Source: Chrysochromulina tobinii
Lineage: Eukaryota
Length of the DNA: 33,618 nt
Assembly (NCBI GenBank): GCA_001275005.1
Contig: JWZX01003279.1
Span: 1 to 33,618, forward strand
Direction of reading: 5' to 3'
The notes beneath the pieces are model-generated. The model saw only the letters and a program-made list of their open reading frames with translations. It searched no databases and was not told where the DNA came from. Shown one piece after another: positions 1,846-31,610 of this stretch. A program made the position numbers and the translations under genes. The first letter of the stretch is position 1, and every line of letters begins with the position of its first letter.

Positions 1846-2382
1846 ATGGCCGTCGCGCTCACGAATCTCAATCCGTTGGCCCCCTTGATCGTCACAGTGG
1901 TCATCGTGGTCGCCCTTGTCGCCATGCTCATCTTTAAGAAGGTCAATAAGTCGACGCCGGCCGCTGCAGCGCCCACACCCATTGCAGCTGCGCCCGCCGC
2001 ACCTGCCGCCGCCTCGAGCAGTAAGCCGAAGCGTGCGGCCAAGTCGCCCGCGCCCGCCGCCAAGTCACCCACGCCCCCTGCCAAGTCACCAGCCAAGTCA
2101 CCCGCACCCGCGCCTGCACCCGCACCGGTGAGCCAGCTTGCGGCTCTAACACACCAGCCCGATCGCAACGGCGGGCTCCCCTCGCCGATTCCGCCCTGAC
2201 CATTGCTGCCGTCGGCTCTGACCGCGCGCTTCGCGCTCTGCTCTCCATATGCGCAGGCCAAAGGGCTGAAGTCGCCCAAAGTTGTCTCCAAGCGCGTGTC
2301 CGCCGAGCTTGCCGCCCTCGAGTTCGCCTCGCCGGGCGCTGCGATGCTGGCTTCGGGGTCGAAGCGGCGCGGTCGCTCGTGA
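1846..2382 (+). CDS. Small single-pass membrane protein with Ala/Pro/Lys (KSP) repeat tail; exons 1846-2127 and 2257-2382
   Basis: Hydrophobic helix PLIVTVVIVVALVAMLIF followed by AKSPAP repeats. A GTGAG...GCGCAG intron at 2128-2256 joins in frame to AKGLKSPKVVSKRVSAELAALEFASPG...KRRGRS*. An alternative in-frame ATG lies at 1819. Confidence 0.65.
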
Positions 2383-5017: not shown

Positions 5018-6876
5018 TCACGAGGGCCTCTGGCCCGGCGGCATCGAGAGGCGCATAGGCGGCATGCCCTGCGGCGGTTGGCCCATCGGCGTGCCCATCG
5101 GCAGGCGCCCCGGCTGCATCGCCTGCTGCTGCTGCTGCTGCATCTGCTGCTGCATCTGCTGCTGCATCATCGGCTGCATCTGCTGTTGCATCATCATCTG
5201 CTGCTGCGCCGCCATCGCCTGCTGCTGATGCACCATCAGCTGCTGCTGCTGCGGTGTCTGCTGCGACTGCGGCTTGCCCATCATGTTGGCGCCGGCCATG
5301 TTCAAGAACGGGCCCGGCGCCGACATGGTCTGCATGACTCCCGGCTGCATCTGGGGCAAAGTAGCCATGTAGCCCATCGGCACCTGTGCGGCGCCGGGCA
5401 TCATCATGCCGGACGCGCCCGGCTGCGGCGGCATCATCATCGCCATCCGCTGCTGCAGCTGCTGCTGCTGCTGCTGCGGCTGCTGCTGCTGCTGCTGCTG
5501 CGCCTGCTGCATCTGCATGGTGTACATCATGGCCTGCGGTGGCGAGGCGACGCTGTACTGGACCATCTGCGGTTGCGGCGGCAGCCGCGGCGAGAGGGCA
5601 GCGTCGGCGCCCGACATGGCGCCCGACATGGCCGGAGTGCCCGCTCCGGCGCCTCCGTACGGCTTGCCAGGCACGAAGGCCTTCGCAGCCGCGTTGAGCT
5701 TGGACTTCATCGACAAGGGAGGTTTGGAGGGAGCCTCGCCCCCGGCGGCAGGCGCATCGACCGAGGGCGAGCCGCCTGAGGCCGGCGGTGCGGCCGGCAG
5801 TGCGGGCGTCGCCGGGGCCGTGATGGTGCTCACGACGGCGCGGGTTGGGTCGGTGCCATCACTCGTGAGCACCATCGAATACTTCGCCTCCTCGTCCTCG
5901 TCGTCGTTGTCGTCGAGCTCCTTGAGGCCCCGCTCCTCGAGCACGTGCTTATTCGTCGAGCCCTTCTTCTCAATCTCGGCCGCCATCGCCTGCGCCTTGG
6001 CCAGCTGCTCGGGCGTGTACTTGTCCATAGTGAGCTTCGTCGTATACAAATCATCAGAGTAATTCGAGCGATGGCCCAGGCGCTCGTTGACCGCAAACTG
6101 GTCCCAGTTGCGCGTCGAGCCGCCCTTGCTCATCGACAGGTCCGCGTCCAGCGCCGTGTCTTCGGACAGCCACGTGGTCGCCCTCACAAGCTCTCGATCC
6201 TCGCCGGCACCGCGGCCGGCCACTTCGATCTCCGTGTCGGCGAGCACTCCGTCACCGATCGAGCGCGCGACGACGGTGCGCTCGTCATTATACAGGTCGG
6301 CATCCTTGATGACGAGGCTCACTATGTCGGTGCGCCTGAAGACGCGCCGAGCCACGGCCTCGGCGACGAGCTCCTCCGGTCCGACCACCTGCCGCACCAC
6401 TCTCATCACCACACCGGCCTGCTTGCCCTTGGCGTCCTCGGGGCATCCGGCCTCGTCCCACCAGCCCGTGCTCAGGATGCCATCGAACAGGCCGCCGCCC
6501 TTGAGCGTGATGGTCACCGGCAGGCCCTGCCATCGCAGCAGCGGACGAGAAAGAGTGTTGCGCGGGGCGCGTGAGATACTGTGCCAGGGAGAGATTGCCT
6601 CAGGCACGGTTGTGGCTGTGGCGGTGAGCCACGCACCACGAGGCTGCGCATGGCAAACGAGAGCCGCTCGGACGTCGTCGCCTTGTACTCGGCAGGGTTG
6701 CGCTGGCCAATCCTGCCAGGCCGAAGTCGTTTGCAGAGGCTCTCAGCAGGGATACACGCCGCCAAGGGAGCAGCGCGGCTCGAGCATGAGAACCGTGGGA
6801 TGTTCAGGCCGGAAAAAGCACACCGAGTTATTGCTTGGCCAGACAGGGCCTTTGGGCGCGTCGAGATGCTGGTCAT
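5018..6876 (-). CDS. ATXN2: Ataxin-2/Pbp1-like RNA-binding protein (Lsm, LsmAD, PAM2, Q/M-rich tail); predicted exons 6876-6824, 6712-6637, 6526-5018
   Basis: Splicing GT-AG introns 6713-6823 and 6527-6636 rebuilds the Lsm start ERLSFAMRSLV|GLPVTITLKGGGLFDGILS. LsmAD is WDQFAVNERLGHRSNYSDDLYTTKL...AEIEK and PAM2 is KSKLNAAAKAFVPG. The first intron is in-frame (111 nt) and less certain. Confidence 0.88.
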
Positions 6877-16773: not shown

Positions 16774-17798
16774 ACCTGATCATGGGCACATGATTCGATT
16801 CTGTGTGGTTGAAGCCGCATGAAGCCGTGTATTGTGCCCTCGACGTTTCGAACCTCGTCAAATCAACGTGAGTTTCGTCATCGGCGCAACTGAACGGTCG
16901 ATCTGGCCGTGACGAGCGAGCGAGCGAGCGAAGAAAGATGCCGATCGGACGGAGGGACATGATTGCCGCCAAGGAGTCAGAATCATGGACGACACCATCG
17001 TGGAAGGTATGCGAAGAACTCACAACCGCCGATGCACCGTCGCCCGGCGGGGAATCGCCGCCGCCACCGCCTCCACGGCGGCGGCTTCTGCCACGAGAAG
17101 GAGATGCAAGGTTTTGCCAGACACCGCCAACGAACCAGCAGGAGAAATTGCCGTACCACGTGGGCTCGCCGAGTTCCATCATCAGCACGCCCACATGGCC
17201 CTCGAAAGCGCCCCTTCCGCAAGCCATCAATTCTCGATGGCTGATCGTGACCGAGGAACATCGCATGAACGCTCTCGAAGAGCGTTCTTCGCTTGCGTTT
17301 GGTACGCCTCTCTGCCGCGCACGCTTGCCATCAGCCCCTCCCTTTGCCGTGAGTGACGCTCTCACCACCGTTATCTGTTCCGTGCTTGTCCAGGGTGTGT
17401 CTTCTGGACAATTGCTGGCGCACTCATAATGTTCTTGTGCTGAGATCTCACAAGAGTTTTGCGCAATTGTGTGCATCCGCCATCCGAGAAGTGTGGACTG
17501 TGTGGACGCTGTGTGAGTACTGTGCGGGACCACGTACGCTTAATCACGGCCGGCCAATCCCAGCGACCAGCGACCCTGTGTGGGCGCAAGTGGGCCGACG
17601 TGAATCGTGATCGAACAGGCAACAGGAACCGACCGGAACACGAAGGCTGCAACTACTGTTGTTTGAGTACATTGTCATGCGCACTAACCACAATCAAAAT
17701 CTACTACTGAACTGAGAAGCACTGGAGGGCCCCAACTACTACTAGCATGGTTCCTATAAGCATCCACCGTCACGTGGGTGCTTACCTGCTTTGATCTC

Positions 17799-20700
17799 TC
17801 AGACCATGGCCTTCGGGCCGGCGCCCTTCTTGGCAGGCGTCGCCTTTGGCGGTGCCGGCTTAGCTGGCGTGGGCACCGCCTTGGCGCTTGGCTTGGCGCC
17901 CGCCTTGGCGCCCGCCTTGGCCACCGCCGCGGGCTTGCCGCCACCCGCCACGCGGCTCTTGAGCCACTCGATGCAGCTTGTGAAGGCGGTGGCACAGCCT
18001 GGAGGGCACAGGCGGAGGCTGCTCAGCGGCGCTGATGGCGCTGGTGGCGCGCCAGTGCCCTTGGCACCCTTGGCATCGGCCTTGGCGCCACTGGTTGTCG
18101 CCGCCGGCGCCACCTTGGCAGCTGCCGATACGGCGCTCGAGGACTCGCTGGCGCTCGGGATGGCGCTCGCGAACGTGACCATCGGCACCAACGGCCGACC
18201 TCCAACCGCCAATGATCATCTGCAACGCCCGTAGCGCGGCGCACATGAGCAGCGTGGCCGCACATCCCGTAGCCAGTAGTTCTGGAAGCGGGGCAGCCAT
18301 CGCCACGGTACCGGTAAGGGTACCGTTCCCCGCTGGCCCAGCCCCGTGTTCGGAGGCGCCAGGCAGCTGGCCGGTCAGCTGACCGAGCGGCTGACCGAGC
18401 GGCTGACCGAGCGGCACGCCCCAGGCGGCAAGGTAGGCGGCGAGGAGGCACTCGACAGCGGCGAGCGCGGACCAATCAGCGAGCCTCACCGAATCACCAA
18501 GCCACGGAGTGCCATTCGCGCCGCTGCCGTCGCTGCGCGGAGCTGTGAGCGGCAGCAGCGGTCGCGACTGCCGCTGCTGCTGCTGCTGTTGCTGCTGCTG
18601 CGCGCGGCGGCTCCCAAGCAGAGCGCGCGCGATGAGCTGCCGAGCTAGCGTGACGAGCAGCCCGCACGCAGCCATCGCCATCGCCACGTGCAGCGGCCAG
18701 AGCGCTGTGAGCGTCAGCAGCGCCGCCGCCGTCGAGGGCGCCGCCGAGGGCGCCGCCGAGGGCGCCGCCGAGGGCGCCGAGACGAGCAGCGGAGCTCCAA
18801 ATCCGATAAGGGAACCGGAGAGCACGCCCACGCTGACGAACCCGCCGACGAGCGCGAGCATCGAGGCGGCATCGGCGAACGCGTGGCCCGTCGGCGGCAA
18901 TATGAGCTTGCGCACCGCGCCGGTCGACGCAGCCGCCGAGGCCCCCGCGGCATTGGAGGTCGCGCCCACGACGGCGCCCTCCTCTGTGTCGAAGGCAGTG
19001 CTCGTGAGGAGCGCCTCGGGCAGCTGATCGAGTGAGAGACGTGCGTGCGAGTAGGCCCACGGTGCAGCAGTCTCAACGAGCGCGAGCAGATCCCGCACGG
19101 CCGCGTCGCGCACTGCGATCGGATCCGCTGGCTTGGTGCCGCTGGCTTGGCGGGCTACCGCCGCCGGCCCACTCACCTTGGCACCGCCCTTGGCTCCCTT
19201 GGTGGACTCTTGCGAGCGGCATGAGGCCTTGGAGGTATCGGCGGCGACCGCTGCGGCGGCCGGCGCGGCGATCGGCGCCTCAAGGGACATGCCACCGTAA
19301 ATGGCCGCGGCCGCCTCTTCGTCCTCCGCCGCCGCAAACTCATCCAGTGCTTCGTCACTCGGGTCGGCGGAGGCGAGCGCGGGGGTGTACGGGGCGACGG
19401 GCTGCGGCCGCCCGAGAATGAACGGTGCGCCACCGGGCGTCGTGAGCCCACCGTTGCGCCCGCCGTTGCGCTCCTCGGCCTCCGCCTGCCGCCGGATCAC
19501 CCTCTGCAGCTCCTTGTACTCGATGGCACCGCCGCCGTCGCGGTCAAACGACTCGAAGAGCTTATCGACCTCAACATTGGGCACATCGTACCCGAGCAGG
19601 GCGACCGCCTTACGCAGCTCCGGCTTGCGCACCGTGCCGTCACCGTCCACATCCCACTGGCGGAAGAGGTCGAGCACTTTGGCGTGGTTCGCCGCGAGCG
19701 CGAGCCGTATCTCCTGCTGGACGCTGTTGACGCCCCCCACTGCCTGGGCTGCATCGAAGGAGTTCGTGTAGCTGCTCGCCTCGCCGCCCGCGCCGACGGC
19801 ACTGGCACGTGCGTAGGCGCCACCCGCGCCGGCGCGTTTCGGAGCAGCAATCAGGCCGGTCTCTGCCTGCACCGTCGCCACCGCACGCTCCGCCACCGCC
19901 GAGAGCGAGCCAGCCCCTAGGTCCACACTCGCCCGAGACATGTCGGCACTCGCCCGGCCGTTTGCTCGGCGGTCGGGCGACGGTCCGCCTCCGCCCCGTT
20001 TGTCGGCCATGGCGACGCTACCGCCGACGCGCCCAGCGAGCGCGAGCGGCGCACCGGGTGCCCCCTGGGTCACACCCTGGGTCAATCCCTGGGTCAGGGG
20101 CTGCCGCTCAGAGCGCACAGGCATGGGAGTCCAGCCCGTGGGCGCGTACGAGGGCAGCGAGGGCGTTGGCACGATCTCACCGAAGCCATACTGCGCCGCC
20201 AGGGCCTTATGCTCCGGGTCCATGCGGAGCGAATCCGCATCCACAGTATACTCCTCCGGGAGGGGCACACGGAGTGACGGAAGCGACGGCATCGAGCACT
20301 CAGACTGCCTCCGGATACGCGTGATCTTCGAGCGCTTGGGGCCGTCGCGGTTCATGCTGCGGCCCACGTCAGTGGCCGTCGACTCCATCAGCGTGCCATC
20401 GCCCGCATCGCCAGCGGCCGCGCCCACGCTCACGCCGCGCACCGCCCCCCCATCGGACGCGCGCGTCTTCCGCAGCTCGCGCAGGTCGACTCCGCCGTGC
20501 GATCCGGGCTGCGAGAGGTCGAGCGCCGCCGACGAGTAGCCCGCGGGCATCTCGAGAGCCTCGACGTGACCTGAGAGGGCTCTCATCTCCTCCGAGATCT
20601 GCATCTCCTCCGACGTCTGCATCTCCTCCGAGATCTGCATCTCCTCCGACGTCTGCATGCCGCCACCGGCCGCCCCGGCCGCCGCGTCGCCCGCACCCCC

Positions 20701-22028: not shown

Positions 22029-23607
22029 ACACTCACGAGGTCATCGAGCATCCGGTTGCGATCGTCAAGGCCGCCGAAGAGCAGGAGCCGCCCGCGATGC
22101 AGCGCAGCGCAGTGACCGGTCCGCACGAGCACCTGCTTCTTCGCCTCCGCTGAGCCTCCCGCCCCTCCGTCCGCGGCGCCCACCGCGGCGCCCTGCGGCG
22201 TCTCCAGCACCGCCTCGATACCATCGGCCCAGTCCGCAGTGGGAGCCAGTGCAGGAGACCTTGCCGTGACGAAATCCGAGGGCGATCCAGTGACGAAATC
22301 CTGGGCTCGTGCGTCGGAATCTTGTGGGCCGTCGCACACGCTCACCACGTGCCAGCGTCGCGTGGTGAGGCTGAATGCATGCAGCTGGGGATCGAAGATG
22401 TTCGACGTGTACTCCCTCCCGCCAAGAACGAGGAGCCTGATTAGGGATGCAATCAGACGTTATCAAGAGGTCATCAGAAGTCATCAGAGGTCATCAGAAG
22501 AAGCCCTCGAAGCAAAGAGACGCACCTCGACCCGACTGCGCAGAGCGTGTGGCCGACCCGAGCGGAGGGGCGCACGCCTCGTGCGCGCACCTTGCGCCAC
22601 GAGGCACTGGCGACGCGAAACTCCCACAGGTCGTCGAACGAGGCCTTGGTCGTGTTACCACCGAAGAGGAACATCGCCGAGCCCCCAAACGCGGAGCACG
22701 CCGAGTGACCAGAGCGCGCCTCGGGACCGTGCCCATCGGCGCAGAGCTGCCTGCGCCACGTGAGGCTCTCAAGGTCGAACCAGTGTAGATCGCCGAAGCA
22801 CTTGCCGGGGGCCGAGCCGCCGAAGACGAGGACACTCGAGCCGATGGCGACGGCCGTATGCGCCCAGCGCGGTGAGGGCCGTACGGGATTGTCGAGGGAG
22901 GCTTGGGCGAGCGGAGGCACCTCGTCGCTCTCCCTCACGCACGCCCACGAGCAATCGAGAGCATCAAACGTCCACGCGTCGTTGAGGAAGGTGACGTCGC
23001 CCCGGCGGCCGGCGAACATGAAGATCTGCGAGCCGACCGCAGTGAGCGTCGCCGACTGCCGCTGCGGGGGGGACGGCGTCCGTGGGTGCACGCGTGTCCA
23101 CGCCGACGCCGACGCTGGCGCCGTCGTGGGCGCTTGTGAACCAGGCCGCGTCAGTGCACTGTGCTGCAGATCGAGGACCCACAGATCATTGAACTCGCGG
23201 TCGTCGCCGTTTGTGCCGCCAAAAATGTAGAGCCGCTGGTCGAGGCAGGTGGCGCGGTGCAAGAAGCGCGCCGGGGGGCAACTGCCCGTCAGCAGCAGCC
23301 TGTTGGGCATGAAGCTCGTGCACGACGAAAGCGCTTGCCAGCGCAAGAACCGACCTTTCCACGTGCCTCGCAAGCGCGACGCGCTTGGCATCAGGCTCGC
23401 GTCGCCAAGCTGCGCAAAAAGTAGCGCTCGCCACAGGCCATCCTCCGTTGCAATTCGATGCAAACGCTGGTTGGTCTGAAGAAGACACCAGAGCGTGCGC
23501 GCATCTTGGTAAGCGAAAATGTGGTAGATGAGGTCATCATTCAGGTCGCTGAGCCCAGCGCCGATTCCGAGTCGGCGCTTCCTGCCCGAGAGGCGCGTGG
23601 CCACCAT
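22013..23607 (-). CDS. F-box/Kelch-repeat protein; exons 23607-22526 and 22436-22013
   Basis: F-box LSDLNDDLIYHIFAYQDARTLWCLLQTNQRLHRIATEDGLWR and Kelch repeats (RLYIFGG, IFMFAG, VLVFGG, MFLFGG). Removing intron 22437-22525 restores AVGSRLLVLGGREY...RTGHCAALHRGRLLLFGG. Confidence 0.9.
22437..22525 (-). other. Repeat-filled GT-AG intron (89 nt), putative introner-like family
   Basis: GTGCGT donor, (C/T)TCTGATGAC tandem units, 3' end TGATTGC-ATCCCTA-ATCAG. Splicing restores a Kelch repeat. Confidence 0.85.
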
Positions 23608-24055
23608 GGTCGCCCTTTATGGGCTGGCTCCGCCGCGCATGGTCATCCGTGTGAACAAGGTCATCAGAACAGGGGACCACGTGTGTGAAATGCCCATAGG
23701 GCCGTCTCACACGCCCAGAAACGTGGCTTCGAATCAATTGCGAAGCCTTTCCCGCTCACTCCAATCGGAATCTATGAAAACGGCGAAACTGTGCCGCCGC
23801 GACTCCGGCACGCGCGCGTGCGCGCTGCCGCGGCGGCAGAGGGGCAGACGCTGCTCACAGTGGCCCCATCGGTACTATTGGGTTACGTTAGGGGGGAGGG
23901 TCTCTCCTTCCCCCGCCCGCCGCCGATTAACGGCCTGTGTAATAGCAGGCTGTGTCGGCCACGCCTCCGTCCATTGCGATAGCGGCCCCCGTGCTTGGGG
24001 GTCCGGATGTGTGTTTCACAGGAGCAGCAGCAGCGCGACTCCAGCGTCGTCGAGA

Positions 24056-25603
24056 ATGAATCCGCACGTGCCGATCGGCGAGCCGCTGCAGCACGGTGCT
24101 CAGGCAATTGCCCAGCCCGTCTACGGGGGTGCACCGCAGATCGCTCAGCCCATCTACGGGGGTGCACCACCGATCGCTCAGCCCGTCTACGGGGGTGCAC
24201 CACCGATCGCTCAGCCCGTCTACACCCAGCCGGTCGCTCAGCCGCAGTTTGCACAGCCTCTTTACGCCCAGCCTCCTCAGTACGCCCAGCCACAATACGC
24301 CCAGCCTCCTCAGTACGCCCAGCCTCAGTACGCCCAGCCTCAATACGCCCAGCCTCCTCAGTACGCCCAGCCGCAAGCGCCACAAATGAACGCCAACGTC
24401 CACGTCGCCACGCCGCAGCCACAGAGAACTATGGATGAGGAGGCGCGCCACGCTGCGGATTGGAAGCGTTGCAAGGAGGAGGAGGAGGAGGTTGCAACCA
24501 CCAAGGCCGCATCGATGAAGAAGCCGCCACCACAGCCAGCTGAAACTCCGCCGCCGCCGGTGATGTCGGCGGAGTCCCGCACGGCCCAGGCCATGGCGTG
24601 CCTCTGGCCCGCCATAGAGCCTTACAACTCCGACTACCTCGAGGTCACCACGGCTAGCGGCACTGTGCACCGCATCTACTACGAGGAGTGCGGCACTCCA
24701 TCAGGCAAGCCCGTGCTATTCGTGCACGGAGGGCCCGGAGCTGGATGCAACGCAAAGCAGCGGCGGTTCCACGACCCTACGCGGCACCGTATCATCCTCT
24801 TTGACCAGCGAGGGTGCGGTCGCTCCACGCCGGACGGCTGCCTCGACGAGAACACCACGTTCGACCTGGTGGCCGACATGGAACGACTGCGCGAGAAGCT
24901 CAGCGTGTCGGCCTGGCAGCTCTTCGGAGGCTCCTGGGGGAGTACCCTCTCGCTCGCGTACGCCGTCTCTCACCCGGCGCGCGTGACGGAGCTCATCCTA
25001 CGAGGCATCTTTTTGGTCAAGCAGAGCGAGCTCGACTTTATCTATCAGAGCGCGACTCCGCAGCTCCATCCGGAGGCGCACGCGGCCATGGCCAATTTCG
25101 TCTCGCCCGAGGAGCGGCACGACCTCGTCTCGGCGTACCGCAAGCGCGTGATGAGCAAGGATCCGGAGCTGGCGCGTGCTGCCGCCAGGCGGTGGGCCGA
25201 ATACGAAGACGCGATCGCGTACCTCTATCCGCAGCCGGTCGAGGCCTGGGAGGGCACGGGCGGTGAACAGCGCGTCCACCTGCACTACATGTGGGCGCGC
25301 GGCTTCTTTGAGTACGACGGATGGCTGCTCGACCAGCTGGGCACCCTCGCACGCGTACCGATCACCATCGTCCACGGCCGCTACGACGTCGTCTGCCCCA
25401 TAGCGTCCGCATACGAGCTCGCTGCGCGTGTGCCGCATGCGACTCTACAAGTGATCCCCGACTCGGGTCATTCGGCGTGGGAGCCAGGGACCACCCGCGC
25501 CCTCGTGGCTGCGGCCGCGGCGGCCCTCGCCGCAGCCTCGTCGACCGCTTCCGCCTCGCCCGACTACGATGGCCAGGAGCCTCTTGCGCAACCTTTGAAT
25601 TGA
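24056..25603 (+). CDS. pip: Proline iminopeptidase (peptidase S33, alpha/beta hydrolase) with Q/P/Y-rich N-terminal repeats
   Basis: HRIYYEECGTPSGKPVLFVHGGPGAG, FDQRGCGRS, nucleophile GGSWGS, ILRGIF, HGRYDVVCP (Asp), SGHSAWEPG (His). ATG at 24056. Confidence 0.92.
   Translation: MNPHVPIGEPLQHGAQAIAQPVYGGAPQIAQPIYGGAPPIAQPVYGGAPPIAQPVYTQPVAQPQFAQPLYAQPPQYAQPQYAQPPQYAQPQYAQPQYAQPPQYAQPQAPQMNANVHVATPQPQRTMDEEARHAADWKRCKEEEEEVATTKAASMKKPPPQPAETPPPPVMSAESRTAQAMACLWPAIEPYNSDYLEVTTASGTVHRIYYEECGTPSGKPVLFVHGGPGAGCNAKQRRFHDPTRHRIILFDQRGCGRSTPDGCLDENTTFDLVADMERLREKLSVSAWQLFGGSWGSTLSLAYAVSHPARVTELILRGIFLVKQSELDFIYQSATPQLHPEAHAAMANFVSPEERHDLVSAYRKRVMSKDPELARAAARRWAEYEDAIAYLYPQPVEAWEGTGGEQRVHLHYMWARGFFEYDGWLLDQLGTLARVPITIVHGRYDVVCPIASAYELAARVPHATLQVIPDSGHSAWEPGTTRALVAAAAAALAAASSTASASPDYDGQEPLAQPLN
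24109..24375 (+). repeat. Coding repeats AQPVYGGAPPI (33 bp, x3) and QYAQP(P) (15/18 bp)
   Basis: Seen directly in the sequence and translation. Confidence 0.9.
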
Positions 25604-25707
25604 GAGGCTCGCTTTGGCGGGAGCCCACAGTTTGAATTGAGAGGCTCGCAGGCTTTGGCGGGATCCCATTTGAATTGAGAGGCTCGCAGGCTTTGGCGGG
25701 AGCCCAC
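25594..25707. repeat. Three ~37-39-bp tandem copies starting at the PIP stop codon
   Basis: tttgaattgagaggctcgc(aggc)tttggcggga(g/t)ccca at 25594, 25631 and 25669. Confidence 0.92.
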
Positions 25708-27455: not shown

Positions 27456-29517
27456 CTAACTGCCGCTCACCTTGCCGCCGCGCCTCTTGCCACCTGGCGT
27501 GCGACCTTTGGGGTGCGGGGGCATCTCAGATCCAGAGGGCCTCTCCAGCTCGGCGAAGAAGTTGGTCTCGACTAAATCGTCGGCGGGGGTGCGCACGGTG
27601 CCACGCATAGGCGAGTGCTCCCGCTCGCTACTCGACCCACCAACTCTGTGATGGACAAGCTCCCACTGCGTCTCGGCCAGCCGCGCGAGGGTGGGAGCAT
27701 CGGGTGCAGCAAGTTGTTGAATGGAGAGTGCTTGCAATCGTTTCATAAGCCCGACGGCCCGCTCGTGAAGTGCAGCCTCGGCCTGTAGGCCAGGCACCTC
27801 TTCGTCTTCGTTGTTTGGCCGGTACGCCTCGTACCTGATCAGGAAAGCAATCATTAGTCATCAGTGGGCATCAGAGGGGCAAGCAGAGTCAACATCAGGG
27901 GCAATCAGGGGCCATCAAGGCCTCGTGCTCGAGGCGGGCTGGCCAACAGGGAAGGCAATCAGTGGTTAATCAGTGGCCATCGGTGGTCTACGGTGGTCAT
28001 CAGTGGTCATCAGCGGGCATCAGAGGCATTCGGGGGCAGTCAAGGCCTCGTACTCAATGCGGGGCGGCTTGCGTCGGCAGGCGTAGTAGAGCATGCTGGG
28101 AAGCGCCATCTTGAGCGCGAGCGCGTCGAGCCGCTGCTCGGGCGAGATCGCGTTGAGATGCCACTCGATGAGCAGGTGTGTGAGCTTGCAGAGGGCGCCC
28201 TCTGCAAGCAAGAAGGGCAGCAGCTGTGCCTCTACGCCTTCCACATCAAGCTTCAAGAAGAGCAGCTCGGGCGCCGGCAGAGCACTCGCCCCTCGGCGCA
28301 CAAAGGCTGCAAGGTCGACTGCGGTCACATTGATCGATTTTCTGGAGCCGAAACGACCGGCCATTCGATTGCTGAGCGAGGACGTCTCTGAGTTGGCACT
28401 GAGGAAGAAGGGCACCTGATGACAGAGGAAATCAGAGGTCATCAGTAGGCCATCAGAGGCAAGTAGAGGCACTCAGAAGCAAGTAGAGGCAATAAGGGAC
28501 CAGTGAAAACAAATAGATGCAATCAGAGGCCATCAGAGGCACTCGGAGGCCATTCGAGGCAATTAGAAGGCGAGGTGCAATACCGTCGAGTCCTCGTTCC
28601 ATGCCACCGCGGGTATGTGCGTCAGCCTCGGTGCAAAGGCGGCCACCAGCTGCCTCAGCGTGGGGAAATACTTCTCCTGCGGCTCGAACATGTAGGCCCT
28701 GGTGAGGCAGTGCGGCGCCTCACGATGCATGAGCTTGAGCATCCCTTCGGACCACAAACCTGATGAAGGAGGCAATCGATGGCCATCAGCGGCAATCAGC
28801 TTGAGCATCCCTTTGGACCACAAACCTGATGGCAATCGATGGCCATCAGCGGCAATCCAGTCGAAATGAGCGGCAATCAGTCGTAATCAGGGTTGTTAGC
28901 TTGAGCATCTGCTTGGCCCACAGACCGTTGTTGGCGCCCACGTCGATAATCAGCACGCGACGCTGAACCCTCGCCAACTGCGCGAAGGCCTTGGCCAGCG
29001 TACTTTCCACCTGGTGGCTTGGGTCGTCGTGATCATCATCATCATCATCGTAGGCTGTCGTCCCGTTCTTGAGCTTCTCAAGCTCAGCCTTAGCTGACAG
29101 AAAACCTGTGGGGTGTTGGATCAATGCGCCCAGATTGCATGCGTGGTACCTGCATGCAATGAGGAAGGTCATCAGAGGCGATCAGAGGCGATCAGAGGCA
29201 ATTAGAGGCGATCAGAGGCAATCAACGTACCACGAGCAGTCTTTCCACTTGATGGACACTGACACGTACCGGCAGCGCTCGCAGCTGGCGCAGTGGTGCG
29301 CGCAGTAGGAGAAAGCCGCGTCCCACGATGCCCGGTGCCTATGCGGCAACGTAAAGGTGCCTTTCAGGCCGACCTTGCAGTTGCCCTTCACACCCTCGAC
29401 GGTGGTTTCGCAGAACCCGGAGCGTCTGGAGCGAGACATGGTGCCTGCATGCAATGAGGGACGTGTTGTCTTGTTGGGCTGCCCTGCGCCGAGTACGATG
29501 GCGATGCCAGGCCACAT
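27456..29517 (-). CDS. FkbM-family SAM-dependent methyltransferase with N-terminal Cys-rich module; exons 29517-29231, 29149-28926, 28759-28584, 28415-28054, 27834-27456
   Basis: Five ORF-track fragments join in phase via four GT-AG introns: ...KDCSW|YHACN...IIDVGANNG|LWSEG...MFEPQ...AWNEDST|VPFF...FLKLDVEGVE...LLIEWH...RIE|YEAYRP. DVGANxG, FEP, LKxDVEG and IEWH are FkbM motifs. The start is uncertain. Confidence 0.87.
27835..28053 (-). other. Repeat-filled intron (219 nt) with 9-bp duplication GTACGAGGC at its 5' end and at the start of the next exon
   Basis: + strand gcctcgtac at 28045-28053 and 27826-27834; 3' end TGATTGC-TTTCCTG-ATCAG. Confidence 0.85.
28416..28583 (-). other. Repeat-filled intron (168 nt)
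   Basis: GTATTG donor, GCCTCTGATG/GCCTCTACTT units, 3' end TGATTTC-CTCTGTC-ATCAG|GT; phase-0 join. Confidence 0.83.
28760..28925 (-). other. Repeat-filled intron (166 nt) containing two copies of the first 28 nt of the downstream exon; alternative in-frame acceptor at 28826
   Basis: 28-nt copies at 28898-28925, 28798-28825 and 28732-28759 (the last is exonic); 3' end CGATTGC-CTCCTTC-ATCAG. Confidence 0.8.
29150..29230 (-). other. Repeat-filled intron (81 nt), nearly pure GCCTCTGATC/T decamer array
   Basis: TG|GTACGTTGATT(GCCTCTRAT(C/T/G))x5...CCTCATTGCATGCAG|GTACC; GTAC occurs at both the intron start and the exon start. Confidence 0.87.
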
Positions 29518-29828
29518 ATGATAATTTAGGGTCCCCGCGAAAGGCGGGGCGGCCGCTGAGGCCGGGCGCGACGTTCGAACGCGATCGTGGGCGTCCGCGA
29601 CGCGCCGCGTCGGGTCCAAATTTGGAATGTTTGTCAACCTCCGTGTCATGTGTGGTGCGAATGTGAATGTGTGGCTGGGTCAGTTACCGGTAAAAAGACA
29701 CCGGAGGAGCCGGTTACCGGTACCGTTTTCCTTAGAATTCCTACCGGGTACCTACAGCACATGTTTTTTTCTCCTGCGGAGACGGACAGTAAAAGCGATA
29801 GTGGCTCTCGTGGGGTGTCCGGAGCGAT

Positions 29829-30970: not shown

Positions 30971-31610
30971 TTAGAAGTTCGGTCTTGGTGGCAAGCCCTT
31001 CATGACCGAATCGATCTGCCTGGCTGCCGTGGCGGCCGCAGCGCCGAGCTCCGTCTGCCCATGCATAAGCTTCGCTTGCGCTTCGATGACCTCCAGGATG
31101 GCGCTCGGGCTCGTCTCCACGACGAGCCCACCGACGATCATCTCGTCGATGACCCAATGCACCTTCTCGCAGTTGAAGATGATGTCGAGCTCGCACACAT
31201 TCTTGAAATGGCGGTCGAGCGTCTCGACGAGAACCTGGATCAGGTCGAGAATGCCGAGCTCACTCTCGGAGCCGTCGATGACCATGCAAAAGTAGAGCGT
31301 CGCGTACAGCCGATAGACAACCCGAGGTCTGTCGACGCCAGGGAACCATTCCGCTGCGTCAAGGAGCGAGCTCGCGTTTTCTGCCCTTCCCGTGAGCGTC
31401 GCGAAAAGATCGCGAACCATACGCTGCTGCTGCTGCTGAGGCTGCGGTGGCAGAGGCGACAGCAAAGGTGCAGGATGTCAGCAGCGACTGGATTAGCGCA
31501 ACTGGCTGAGAGTGTAAAGAAAGGCACGCGCGCGCGCGCACCGTCTCACGATAGAATTTGAGCATTCGGGCCTTGCCAAAGTTGTTGACGATTAAAAAGG
31601 CGAGAATCAT
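30971..31610 (-). CDS. AP3S: AP-3 adaptor complex sigma subunit; exons 31610-31542 and 31441-30971
   Basis: MILAFLIVNNFGKARMLKFY...YRLYATLYF...SESELGILDLIQVLVETLDRHFKNVCELDIIF...EMIVGGLVVET. The SESELGILDLIQV signature is sigma-3 type. GT-AG intron at 31442-31541. Confidence 0.93.

What the first reader, a model, noticed from the sequence alone, without database searches (positions are those of the whole stretch)
27826..29230. Family of tandem-repeat-filled introns that appear to be generated by insertion with target duplication (introner-like system)
Seen: all four introns of the FkbM gene (29150-29230, 28760-28925, 28416-28583, 27835-28053) are built from a degenerate ~10-bp sense-strand unit CCTCTGAT(GA/TG/CG). 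All four are followed by an exon starting with GT. The intron 5' end repeats the start of the next exon by 4 nt (GTAC), ~28 nt, 2 nt (GT) and 9 nt (GTACGAGGC) respectively. Other introns in the window (2128-2256, 6527-6636, 6713-6823, 31442-31541) lack the repeat and end in GCAG. Established: introner elements in Micromonas and Aureococcus are non-autonomous transposons that bring one splice site and co-opt the other from a fixed-length target-site duplication. Inference: here the acceptor comes with the insert and the donor comes from the duplicated exon sequence. Variable duplication length, a minisatellite body and no terminal inverted repeats fit templated repeat addition at staggered breaks (RT/telomerase-like or repair synthesis) better than a classic MITE. 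I cannot tell from sequence alone whether this family is already described.
Basis: partly seen in the sequence, partly recalled or inferred. Interest (0 to 1): 0.9.

Follow-up and report, generated by a model that had tools for sequence, protein, structure and literature searches.

The report
Self-copying introns with long target duplications
RNA confirms four repeat-filled introns in one gene of an alga (likely Chrysochromulina), and many related introns are bracketed by 12-44-base copies of the host gene's own sequence, likely because new introns arise when the end of an existing intron is copied into a staggered DNA break.

Summary
All four FkbM-gene introns are real: RNA contigs skip exactly 81, 166, 168 and 219 nt. 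They belong to a large family, sampled in 137 metagenome loci, one matching Chrysochromulina tobinii. Members share a 10-bp unit and a fixed 3' end that holds the branch point and AG. The next exon starts GT in 81 of 110 ends. In 42 of 107 ends a 12-44-nt copy of that exon start lies upstream (null 31 of 1664). One such intron is present or absent among 99%-identical alleles and absent from outgroups, so it is a recent gain. Mirror forms exist, with the donor carried and the acceptor duplicated. A second, non-repetitive 3' cassette leaves the same footprint, so telomerase-like repeat addition is unlikely. No empty allele of the FkbM introns was seen. Best model: microhomology-guided copying of intron ends into staggered breaks, filtered by splicing; the enzyme and template are inferred. 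A published survey lists 0 introner families for C. tobinii and removed satellite-driven candidates. This scan reported a similar footprint before on another piece of this genome (e1-2577349).

The parts
27456..29517 (-). Host gene: five-exon FkbM-like methyltransferase (start codon at 29517 or 29439, not resolved; stop at 27456-27458)
   Evidence: Spliced open frame; PF05050 E 0.001 on exon 4, below the cut-off; RNA contigs cover all five exons in part
29150..29230 (-). Intron 1, 81 nt: near-perfect 10-bp array; ends in the TTGCATGCAG variant; 4-nt match to the next exon (not significant)
   Evidence: RNA joint in 3 of 4 runs; TRF period 10
28760..28925 (-). Intron 2, 166 nt: starts with a diverged 28-nt copy (22/28) of the next exon's start; ends CATCAG
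   Evidence: RNA joint in 2 of 4 runs
28795..28831 (-). Nested copy, inside intron 2, of acceptor plus exon start (95% over 37 nt): a second [target + array + AG] unit
   Evidence: family D5; 66-nt tandem period
28732..28759 (-). Exon 3 start: the duplicated target of intron 2
28416..28583 (-). Intron 3, 168 nt: degenerate array, ends CATCAG; only GT (plus the upstream G) is shared with the next exon
   Evidence: RNA joint in 3 of 4 runs
27835..28053 (-). Intron 4, 219 nt: first 9 nt identical to the next exon's start; degenerate arrays
   Evidence: RNA joint in 1 of 4 runs, 9 letters fit both sides
27893..27943 (-). Nested copy, inside intron 4, of exon-4 end plus donor plus intron start (80% over 51 nt)
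   Evidence: family D8
27826..27834 (-). Exon 5 start: the 9-nt duplicated target of intron 4
22437..22525 (-).
   Evidence: TRF, sequence, Kelch hits on both sides; no RNA joint shown

Best explanation
These are spliced introns of a large family that likely multiplies by template switching: at a staggered break in a gene, a repair or replication polymerase would copy roughly 45-80 nt from the end of an existing intron and rejoin so that 12-44 nt of the gene are duplicated on both sides. The copied piece usually brings the branch point (CTGAT, A at -17) and the AG. The first copy of the duplicated exon sequence supplies the GT or GC donor, so splicing restores the original message. Because most family members are themselves followed by GT, short matches such as G|GT between template and target would both fix the 3' junction and steer events to donor-like sites (inferred). 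The same switch with other end-points gives the mirror class (donor carried, AG from the duplication), the class with both sites in the duplication, and, with a local template, the nested repeats in FkbM introns 2 and 4. Insertions that cannot be spliced would be purged. The 10-bp array is a good template because every unit is a branch point and a landing pad, but it is not required. Shown: splicing, family, fixed 3' end, duplications, one recent gain. Inferred: break, polymerase, DNA or pre-mRNA template, selection.
For: RNA joints. Flanking direct repeats scoring 12 or more in 113 of 259 arrays, against 2.0% of 1036 permuted pairs and 8.1% of 800 same-geometry random sites. Upstream copy of the exon start of 12 nt or more in 42 of 107 ends, against 31 of 1664; lengths 12-44 nt plus one nested 81. 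Next dinucleotide GT 81 and GC 13 of 110, against GT 4.6% after any CAG and GT 0 of 5 in the window's repeat-free introns (p 0.001). Those exon starts look like donors: purine at +3 in 82 of 91, against 58% of 559 exonic GTs. Splice register inside the repeat in 59 of 100, against 30%; classes 32/15/12. Sense orientation 55 of 60; branch A at -17 in 83 of 121. Microhomology of 3 nt or more at the 5' junction in 6 of 19, against 9.7% (p 0.007). Second cassette: GT 35 of 44, duplication of 12 nt or more 16 of 44, against 1.0%. L019 intron: 5 of 15 listed 99%-identical cluster members read through (contigs 4.8-45.8 kb), 8 carry the insert. A 91% sister protein and 12 homologues at 47-54% are contiguous across the site.
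Against: No enzyme or template was identified, and no donor-recipient pair was traced. The microhomology excess is modest: 12 of 19 junctions have 0-1 nt, and 3 of 22 were dropped as nested artefacts. 41 of 100 repeat-flanked inserts show no exact splice register (some look diverged, nested or spurious). Only one gain is polarised; in the three other clusters found, no listed member reads through (0 of 45). The FkbM introns themselves show no empty allele (0 of 30), and two lack a significant duplication. Strong sense and genic bias is easier to explain with an RNA template. Boundaries in the metagenome loci are inferred without RNA. Loci were chosen for near-perfect arrays, which inflates the share of young events. 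A long direct repeat also permits precise deletion, so intron-less alleles alone do not prove gain.
Confidence: 0.5

Rival explanations
1. RNA route: excised intron RNA ending in AG is the template. Either a non-LTR reverse transcriptase primes on it at a nick (fixed 3' end, variable 5' truncation, variable duplication), or a lingering intron-lariat spliceosome joins the intron's 3' end to a cryptic donor in another transcript, and that chimera is copied back into DNA.
For: Fixed 3' end, variable 5' end, 12-44-nt duplications and 5' microhomology match target-primed reverse transcription (established knowledge). Sense and genic bias and donor-like targets. Two unrelated cassettes share only being intron 3' ends. 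Lariat 3'-OH attack that joins the intron 3' end to a 5' splice site is reported in cis (PMC10996645, passages).
Against: It does not simply explain the mirror class (15 of 59) or the class with both sites in the duplication (12 of 59). Random retroposition should leave many copies followed by arbitrary bases, yet only 5 of 42 duplications start with other than GT or GC. No RT motif in 788 ORFs (crude scan) and no RT or transposase among the Pfam families shown for the 63 longest coding-like ORFs; that sample is about 1% of a genome.
Confidence: 0.27
2. Old introns were invaded by a satellite. Local slippage duplicated array plus junction, and loss of one nested half left an apparent target duplication at an old position. 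No new intron positions are made.
For: Nested junction duplications are common (FkbM introns 2 and 4; L019; 7 of 42 multi-copy). FkbM introns 3 and 4 are shared by two protein clusters about 93% identical, with no empty allele. Array length varies between copies. 10-11-bp intronic tandem repeats in Emiliania huxleyi are recalled from Read et al. 2013 (paper not held).
Against: It cannot raise GT/GC exon starts to 94 of 110 if ordinary introns have few (1 of 5 in the window). The most upstream copy is not preceded by an intron-end motif in 37 of 42 cases. The L019 site is empty in a sister lineage and 12 distant homologues. A non-satellite cassette shows the same footprint.
Confidence: 0.15
3. 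A classic non-autonomous DNA transposon (MITE-type introner) with later satellite expansion.
For: The terminal TCATCAG is the reverse complement of the unit CTGATGA, so some inserts look like 7-bp inverted ends. One 1.5-kb element with 21-nt inverted ends carries an array (L016/L057). Tara Chrysochromulina genomes hold introners with 4-bp duplications.
Against: Duplication length is continuous from 12 to 44 nt, not fixed. 5' junctions fall at 9 different phases of the unit. The stem does not covary: the commonest last unit (36 of 74) breaks it. The second cassette has an unrelated sequence.
Confidence: 0.05
4. The duplications or the empty alleles are assembly artefacts around a high-copy repeat.
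For: Short-read contigs break at arrays, and summed depth at arrays is hundreds of times the unique depth. A 27-nt repeat could be collapsed by an assembler.
Against: The same duplicated ends recur in many separately assembled relatives (11 of 15, 14 of 15, 15 of 15). Many copies are diverged from the exon copy. Outgroups at 47-91% identity are also empty at L019. RNA joints show the overlaps.
Confidence: 0.03

Closest known systems
Introner elements with target-site duplication (Aureococcus; Symbiodinium; Polarella glacialis classes 4/5 and 6/8/10; Gozashti 2022, 10.1101/2022.06.06.494994; Roy 2020, 10.1101/2020.10.14.339549; passages read)
   Same: Many related introns; one splice site carried, the other recruited from a duplicated target; several splice configurations per family.
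   Different: In the passages read, the duplication has one short length per class (3, 4, 5 or 8 nt). Here it is 12-44 nt and variable, the 5' end is not fixed, the body is an array or a short cassette, and there are no maintained inverted ends.
Haptophyte introners already listed: Chrysochromulina sp. Tara MAG family 5 (4-bp duplication, no inverted ends, carries the 5' site) and Emiliania huxleyi fam24 (5 copies, unknown class, '10bp terminal direct repeats', co-opts 5', carries 3'; PMC12130899 supplement row)
   Same: Same lineage, no inverted ends; fam24 has the same donor/acceptor logic and about 70 nt length.
   Different: Their sequences were not seen, so identity with this family is untested. 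[quoted passage not shown]
Intron gain by double-strand-break repair (Daphnia, Drosophila, Aspergillus; Farlow 2011, PMC3020277, passages)
   Same: A captured fragment at a staggered break, flanked by direct repeats that overlap the splice sites; microhomology.
   Different: Those repeats are described as short and the captured DNA as exogenous fragments. Here the captured DNA is repeatedly an intron end from two families, and the repeats are long.
Intron gain by tandem genomic duplication of an AG|GT site (Hellsten 2011, as summarised in 10.1101/051292)
   Same: Class C here (12 of 59) takes both splice sites from the duplicated exon.
   Different: Foreign family sequence lies between the two copies and supplies the branch point.
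Non-LTR retrotransposon / SINE insertion (established knowledge, recalled)
   Same: Fixed 3' end, variable 5' end, variable-length duplication, 5' microhomology.
   Different: No poly(A) tail, no RT partner found, strong preference for donor-like sites, and mirror-image events.

Membership tests
Introner (broad sense) | Many sequence-related introns at unrelated sites | tested here: met
   259 non-redundant arrays in 708 kb of selected loci plus the window; conserved 24-nt 3' end; about 4100 stretches estimated in the collection
Introner (broad sense) | Spliced precisely from mRNA | tested here: met
   4 of 4 FkbM joints in RNA contigs; other loci inferred only
Introner (broad sense) | Recent gain: empty orthologous site | tested here: met
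   Met for one locus, L019. Not seen for three other loci or for the FkbM introns
Introner (broad sense) | End-to-end homology with consistent boundaries at both ends | tested here: not met
   3' end fixed; 5' end variable, 9 unit phases among 22 junctions
MITE-type introner | Fixed short target-site duplication | tested here: not met
   12-44 nt, continuous
MITE-type introner | Terminal inverted repeats | tested here: not met
   The terminal 7-mer is an inverted unit, but no fixed 5' end and no covariation
MITE-type introner | Nucleosome-linker periodicity of insertions | tested here: inconclusive
   144 gaps between arrays show no clear period at 40-nt bins; low power
MITE-type introner | Autonomous transposase partner with the same ends | tested here: inconclusive
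   None among families shown for 63 of 234 coding-like ORFs; no genome held
Non-LTR retroposition | Fixed 3' end, 5' truncation, variable duplication | tested here: met
   holds for the main class only
Non-LTR retroposition | RT-encoding partner sharing the 3' end | tested here: inconclusive
   No motif hit in 788 ORFs; about 1% of a genome sampled
Break-repair intron gain | Direct repeats overlapping splice sites, with junction microhomology | tested here: met
   59 of 100 in register; microhomology modest, p 0.007
Break-repair intron gain | Dependence on an end-joining or template-switch polymerase | not testable with these tools
   Needs genetics or break-induction assays

The most novel reading that the evidence does not exclude
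Introns here are true replicators with no transposon behind them. Any intron end can be copied into a donor-like exonic site with a long duplication, each new intron becomes a better template, and branch-point arrays are selected as selfish amplifiers. This would be a self-reinforcing route to mass intron gain, still segregating in lake populations, and missed by introner screens that filter repeats.
Probability: 0.35. Interest if true: 0.92.

Novelty: new variant of a known kind. Interest (0 to 1): 0.76.

Why it matters
How spliceosomal introns are born is a long-standing open question, and most recent mass gains are credited to transposons with short fixed duplications. Here a cultured alga (likely C. 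tobinii, whose genome is published) appears to carry abundant introns that still record their birth: a long copy of the target, a fixed intron 3' end and a variable 5' junction, with at least one site segregating in nature. That makes mechanism and population genetics directly testable with existing genomes and metagenomes. It also suggests that screens which drop repeat-driven candidates miss a whole class, and it may explain repeat-rich introns in other haptophytes.

Tried and rejected
No whole genome is held, and metagenome contigs could not be extended, so genome-wide counts were not possible. Viral contigs: 0 and 1 matches, the one AT-rich and unrelated. Prokaryote genomes: 11 matches, of which only L008 is a clear stray algal contig. 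No longer homologue of FkbM exon 4 was found (weak evidence). The first read-laying, over 19.6 kb, was swamped by repeat matches and did not list the FkbM joints; the narrow call did. De novo prediction of repeat-free introns as a control recovered only 1 known window intron, and its 'repeat-free' class was contaminated by the second cassette, so it was not used as a control. Hairpin at the 3' end: possible for one variant, no covariation, rejected as a maintained structure. The inverse relation of duplication and insert length is partly built in by my 100-nt cut and is not used. The first microhomology null was too lenient and was replaced. Six of 10 ORFs were not in the collection by exact match. 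Overlapping loci from different assemblies showed array-length changes but no presence/absence in the two pairs aligned. Telomerase-like addition was rejected because a non-repetitive cassette behaves the same. Read et al. 2013 is not held, and a term search for its statement found nothing.

Full report
Observation. RNA contigs skip 81, 166, 168 and 219 nt in 3, 2, 3 and 1 of 4 runs, with CT..AC ends on the plus strand. A DNA run, possibly the window's source, is continuous there. Splicing yields an open frame with a weak FkbM hit. All four introns hold period-10 arrays, and all next exons start GT. The 9-nt match of intron 4 and the 22/28 match of intron 2 are far beyond chance (about 1e-4 and 2e-7); the 4-nt and 2-nt matches of introns 1 and 3 are not. 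Introns 2 and 4 also contain nested copies of their own junctions. A fifth, predicted repeat intron lies at 22437-22525 in a Kelch gene, and its next exon starts GC.

Organism. The window encodes PsbP, eIF3e, THOC3 and other eukaryotic genes; its THOC3 is letter for letter in NCBI nr, UniRef and EukProt, name withheld. A family locus, L042, matches Chrysochromulina tobinii KOO30775.1 at 283 of 283 residues, and that gene model uses the same acceptor. That the window is C. tobinii or a close relative is an inference.

The family. A 25-base pattern returned 145 stretches from 2 of 64 parts of the metagenome collection, about 4100 estimated: 137 loci and 707,957 bases with some overlap. A Markov model gave 341 merged arrays, 259 after removing duplicates and those lacking 120 nt of flank; the commonest units are CTGATGACCT, CTGATGGCCT and CTGATTGCCT. 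These loci were selected for near-perfect arrays. Of 121 array-terminal acceptor motifs, 110 end YYTCATYAG and 11 end CATGCAG. The last unit puts a branch A 17 nt from the end in 83 of 121, and the array lies on the coding strand in 55 of the 60 cases with scorable flanks. The next two bases are GT in 81 and GC in 13 of 110, against GT in 4.6% after any CAG. The window's five repeat-free introns (one RNA-confirmed) have GT 0 of 5. Those exon starts resemble donors: purine at +3 in 82 of 91, against 58% of 559 exonic GTs.

Target duplications. Direct repeats scoring 12 or more flank 113 of 259 arrays, against 2.0% of 1036 permuted pairs and 8.1% of 800 random sites. Anchored on the acceptor, 42 of 107 have an upstream copy of the exon start of 12 nt or more (at most 2 mismatches), against 31 of 1664. 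Lengths run from 12 to 44 nt, plus one nested 81; 37 of 42 first copies follow ordinary sequence rather than an intron end. Of the 113, 107 were kept (short or repeat-like ones dropped) and 100 were not flagged nested. Of those 100, 59 have a GT/GC..AG register inside the repeat (null 30%): 32 with the donor from the duplication, 15 with the acceptor from it, 12 with both; 41 have none. The 16 acceptor-carrying cases of 100 nt or less total 72-96 nt. Junction microhomology with the unit is 3 nt or more in 6 of 19 (3 of 22 dropped as nested), against 9.7% expected, p 0.007; this is real but modest.

A second cassette. A non-repetitive intron end (GCATGCA, then CTCACCACGGCG, a pyrimidine tract and CCCCACAG) occurs at 44 ends in 24 loci; one of these is a loose match inside the window's confirmed exon 2. 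GT follows in 35 of 44, and 16 of 44 have a duplication of 12 nt or more, against 1.0%. Chimeras of array and cassette exist, and FkbM intron 1 ends in the cassette's first part. The array is therefore not required for the footprint.

Gain or old introns? Ten ORFs ending in such introns were looked up and four were found. At L019 (27-nt perfect repeat, two tandem units), 15 of 67 cluster members were listed. Five read through, on four contig lengths from 4.8 to 45.8 kb; eight carry the insert; two are ambiguous. A 91% sister protein and 12 homologues at 47-54% are contiguous across the site, two of them on contigs over 10 kb; one 98% hit stops at the insert and one distant hit does not align there. 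This is best read as a recent, segregating gain, though some records could be transcripts and direct repeats allow precise loss. In the other three clusters, 15, 11 and 14 of 15 listed members show the insert and none reads through. For FkbM, 29 of 30 listed relatives (of 45) enter intron 4, 25 start in intron 3, and none reads through, across two clusters about 93% identical. The FkbM introns are thus older members.

Mechanism. Shown: splicing, a shared fixed 3' end, long variable duplications, three splice configurations, two unrelated cassettes, one polarised gain. Inferred: a staggered break repaired by copying part of another intron, guided by short matches, then filtered by splicing. I prefer a DNA or pre-mRNA template switch (0.50) because it yields the main, mirror, double and nested forms alike. 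An excised-RNA route (0.27) fits the fixed 3' end and sense bias but not the mirror class. Old introns plus slippage (0.15) cannot readily give 85% GT/GC exon starts or the empty outgroups. A MITE (0.05) fails on duplication length and ends. No RT or transposase was seen in 788 ORFs by motif or among the families shown for 63 of 234 coding-like ORFs by Pfam; this is about 1% of a 59-Mb genome (size from PMC4580454, passages).

Literature. Gozashti 2022 (passages; supplement rows; file cut when stored, three motif searches empty) lists introners in Tara Chrysochromulina genomes, one with a 4-bp duplication. Gozashti 2025 (PMC12130899; passages; supplement rows; files 13-14 not searched) lists 0 families for C. 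tobinii, removed satellite-driven candidates, and notes an unclassified five-copy E. huxleyi family with 10-bp terminal direct repeats. Roy 2020 (passages) describes fixed 3-8-nt duplications. Also seen: Farlow 2011 (passages), Ares 2024 (passages), a 2024 review (PMC11282704, passages), Roy 2016 (first of two parts), and two Phaeocystis papers (passages). The C. tobin genome paper mentions introns once and not this family. Ten full-text searches showed no description of it in the listings. Subscription papers, bioRxiv supplements and family consensus sequences were not visible and may bear on novelty. Intronic 10-11-bp repeats in E. huxleyi (Read 2013) are recalled only. This scan's note e1-2577349 reports a similar footprint on another piece of this genome; it is not independent support.

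Verdict. A real, introner-like intron family with an unusual birth signature; a new variant of a known kind, mechanism unproven, directly testable. Interest 0.76.

Noticed in passing
44 ends in 24 loci, e.g. L018, L024, L041, L046, L053, L073: Second, non-repetitive intron 3' cassette ending CCCCACAG, with the same GT bias and long upstream duplications; chimeras with the 10-bp array occur.
   Followed up: partly
L016:176-1692 and L057: A 1.5-kb element with perfect 21-nt inverted ends and subterminal CAAAACAC repeats, in two different right flanks. About 390 bp inside are replaced between the copies, and it carries a CTGATTGC array whose length differs by 70 bp. Possible Pack-type DNA transposon.
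   Followed up: partly
L078:1180-3365 and L082:6782-8946: About 2.2 kb of internally palindromic repeat shared at 89-94% identity; no obvious coding role.
   Followed up: no
   Followed up: partly
L008 (1440 bp, G001:C436): Contig with algal-type repeat arrays and a family acceptor inside a bacterial MAG; probable contamination.
   Followed up: partly
window 29106-29149 (-): The first 44 nt of FkbM exon 2 loosely resemble the second cassette and end CCCCACAG followed by GT; RNA contigs keep them in the exon, but an alternative acceptor is possible.
   Followed up: no
window 16865-18141 (+), intron 17302-17393: Transcript well covered in three RNA runs, with an RNA-confirmed repeat-free intron; no Pfam hit for the two exon-1 frames scanned.
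   Followed up: no
window 23806-24007 and 25594-25706: An intergenic stretch with high summed DNA depth that partly recurs near 29828 (another dispersed repeat), and a 38-bp x3 tandem repeat.
   Followed up: no
L024, L033, L071, L128: Long duplications whose first bases are GG, GA or CT after the family acceptor; they may use nearby or non-canonical donors, or be unspliced insertions.
   Followed up: no
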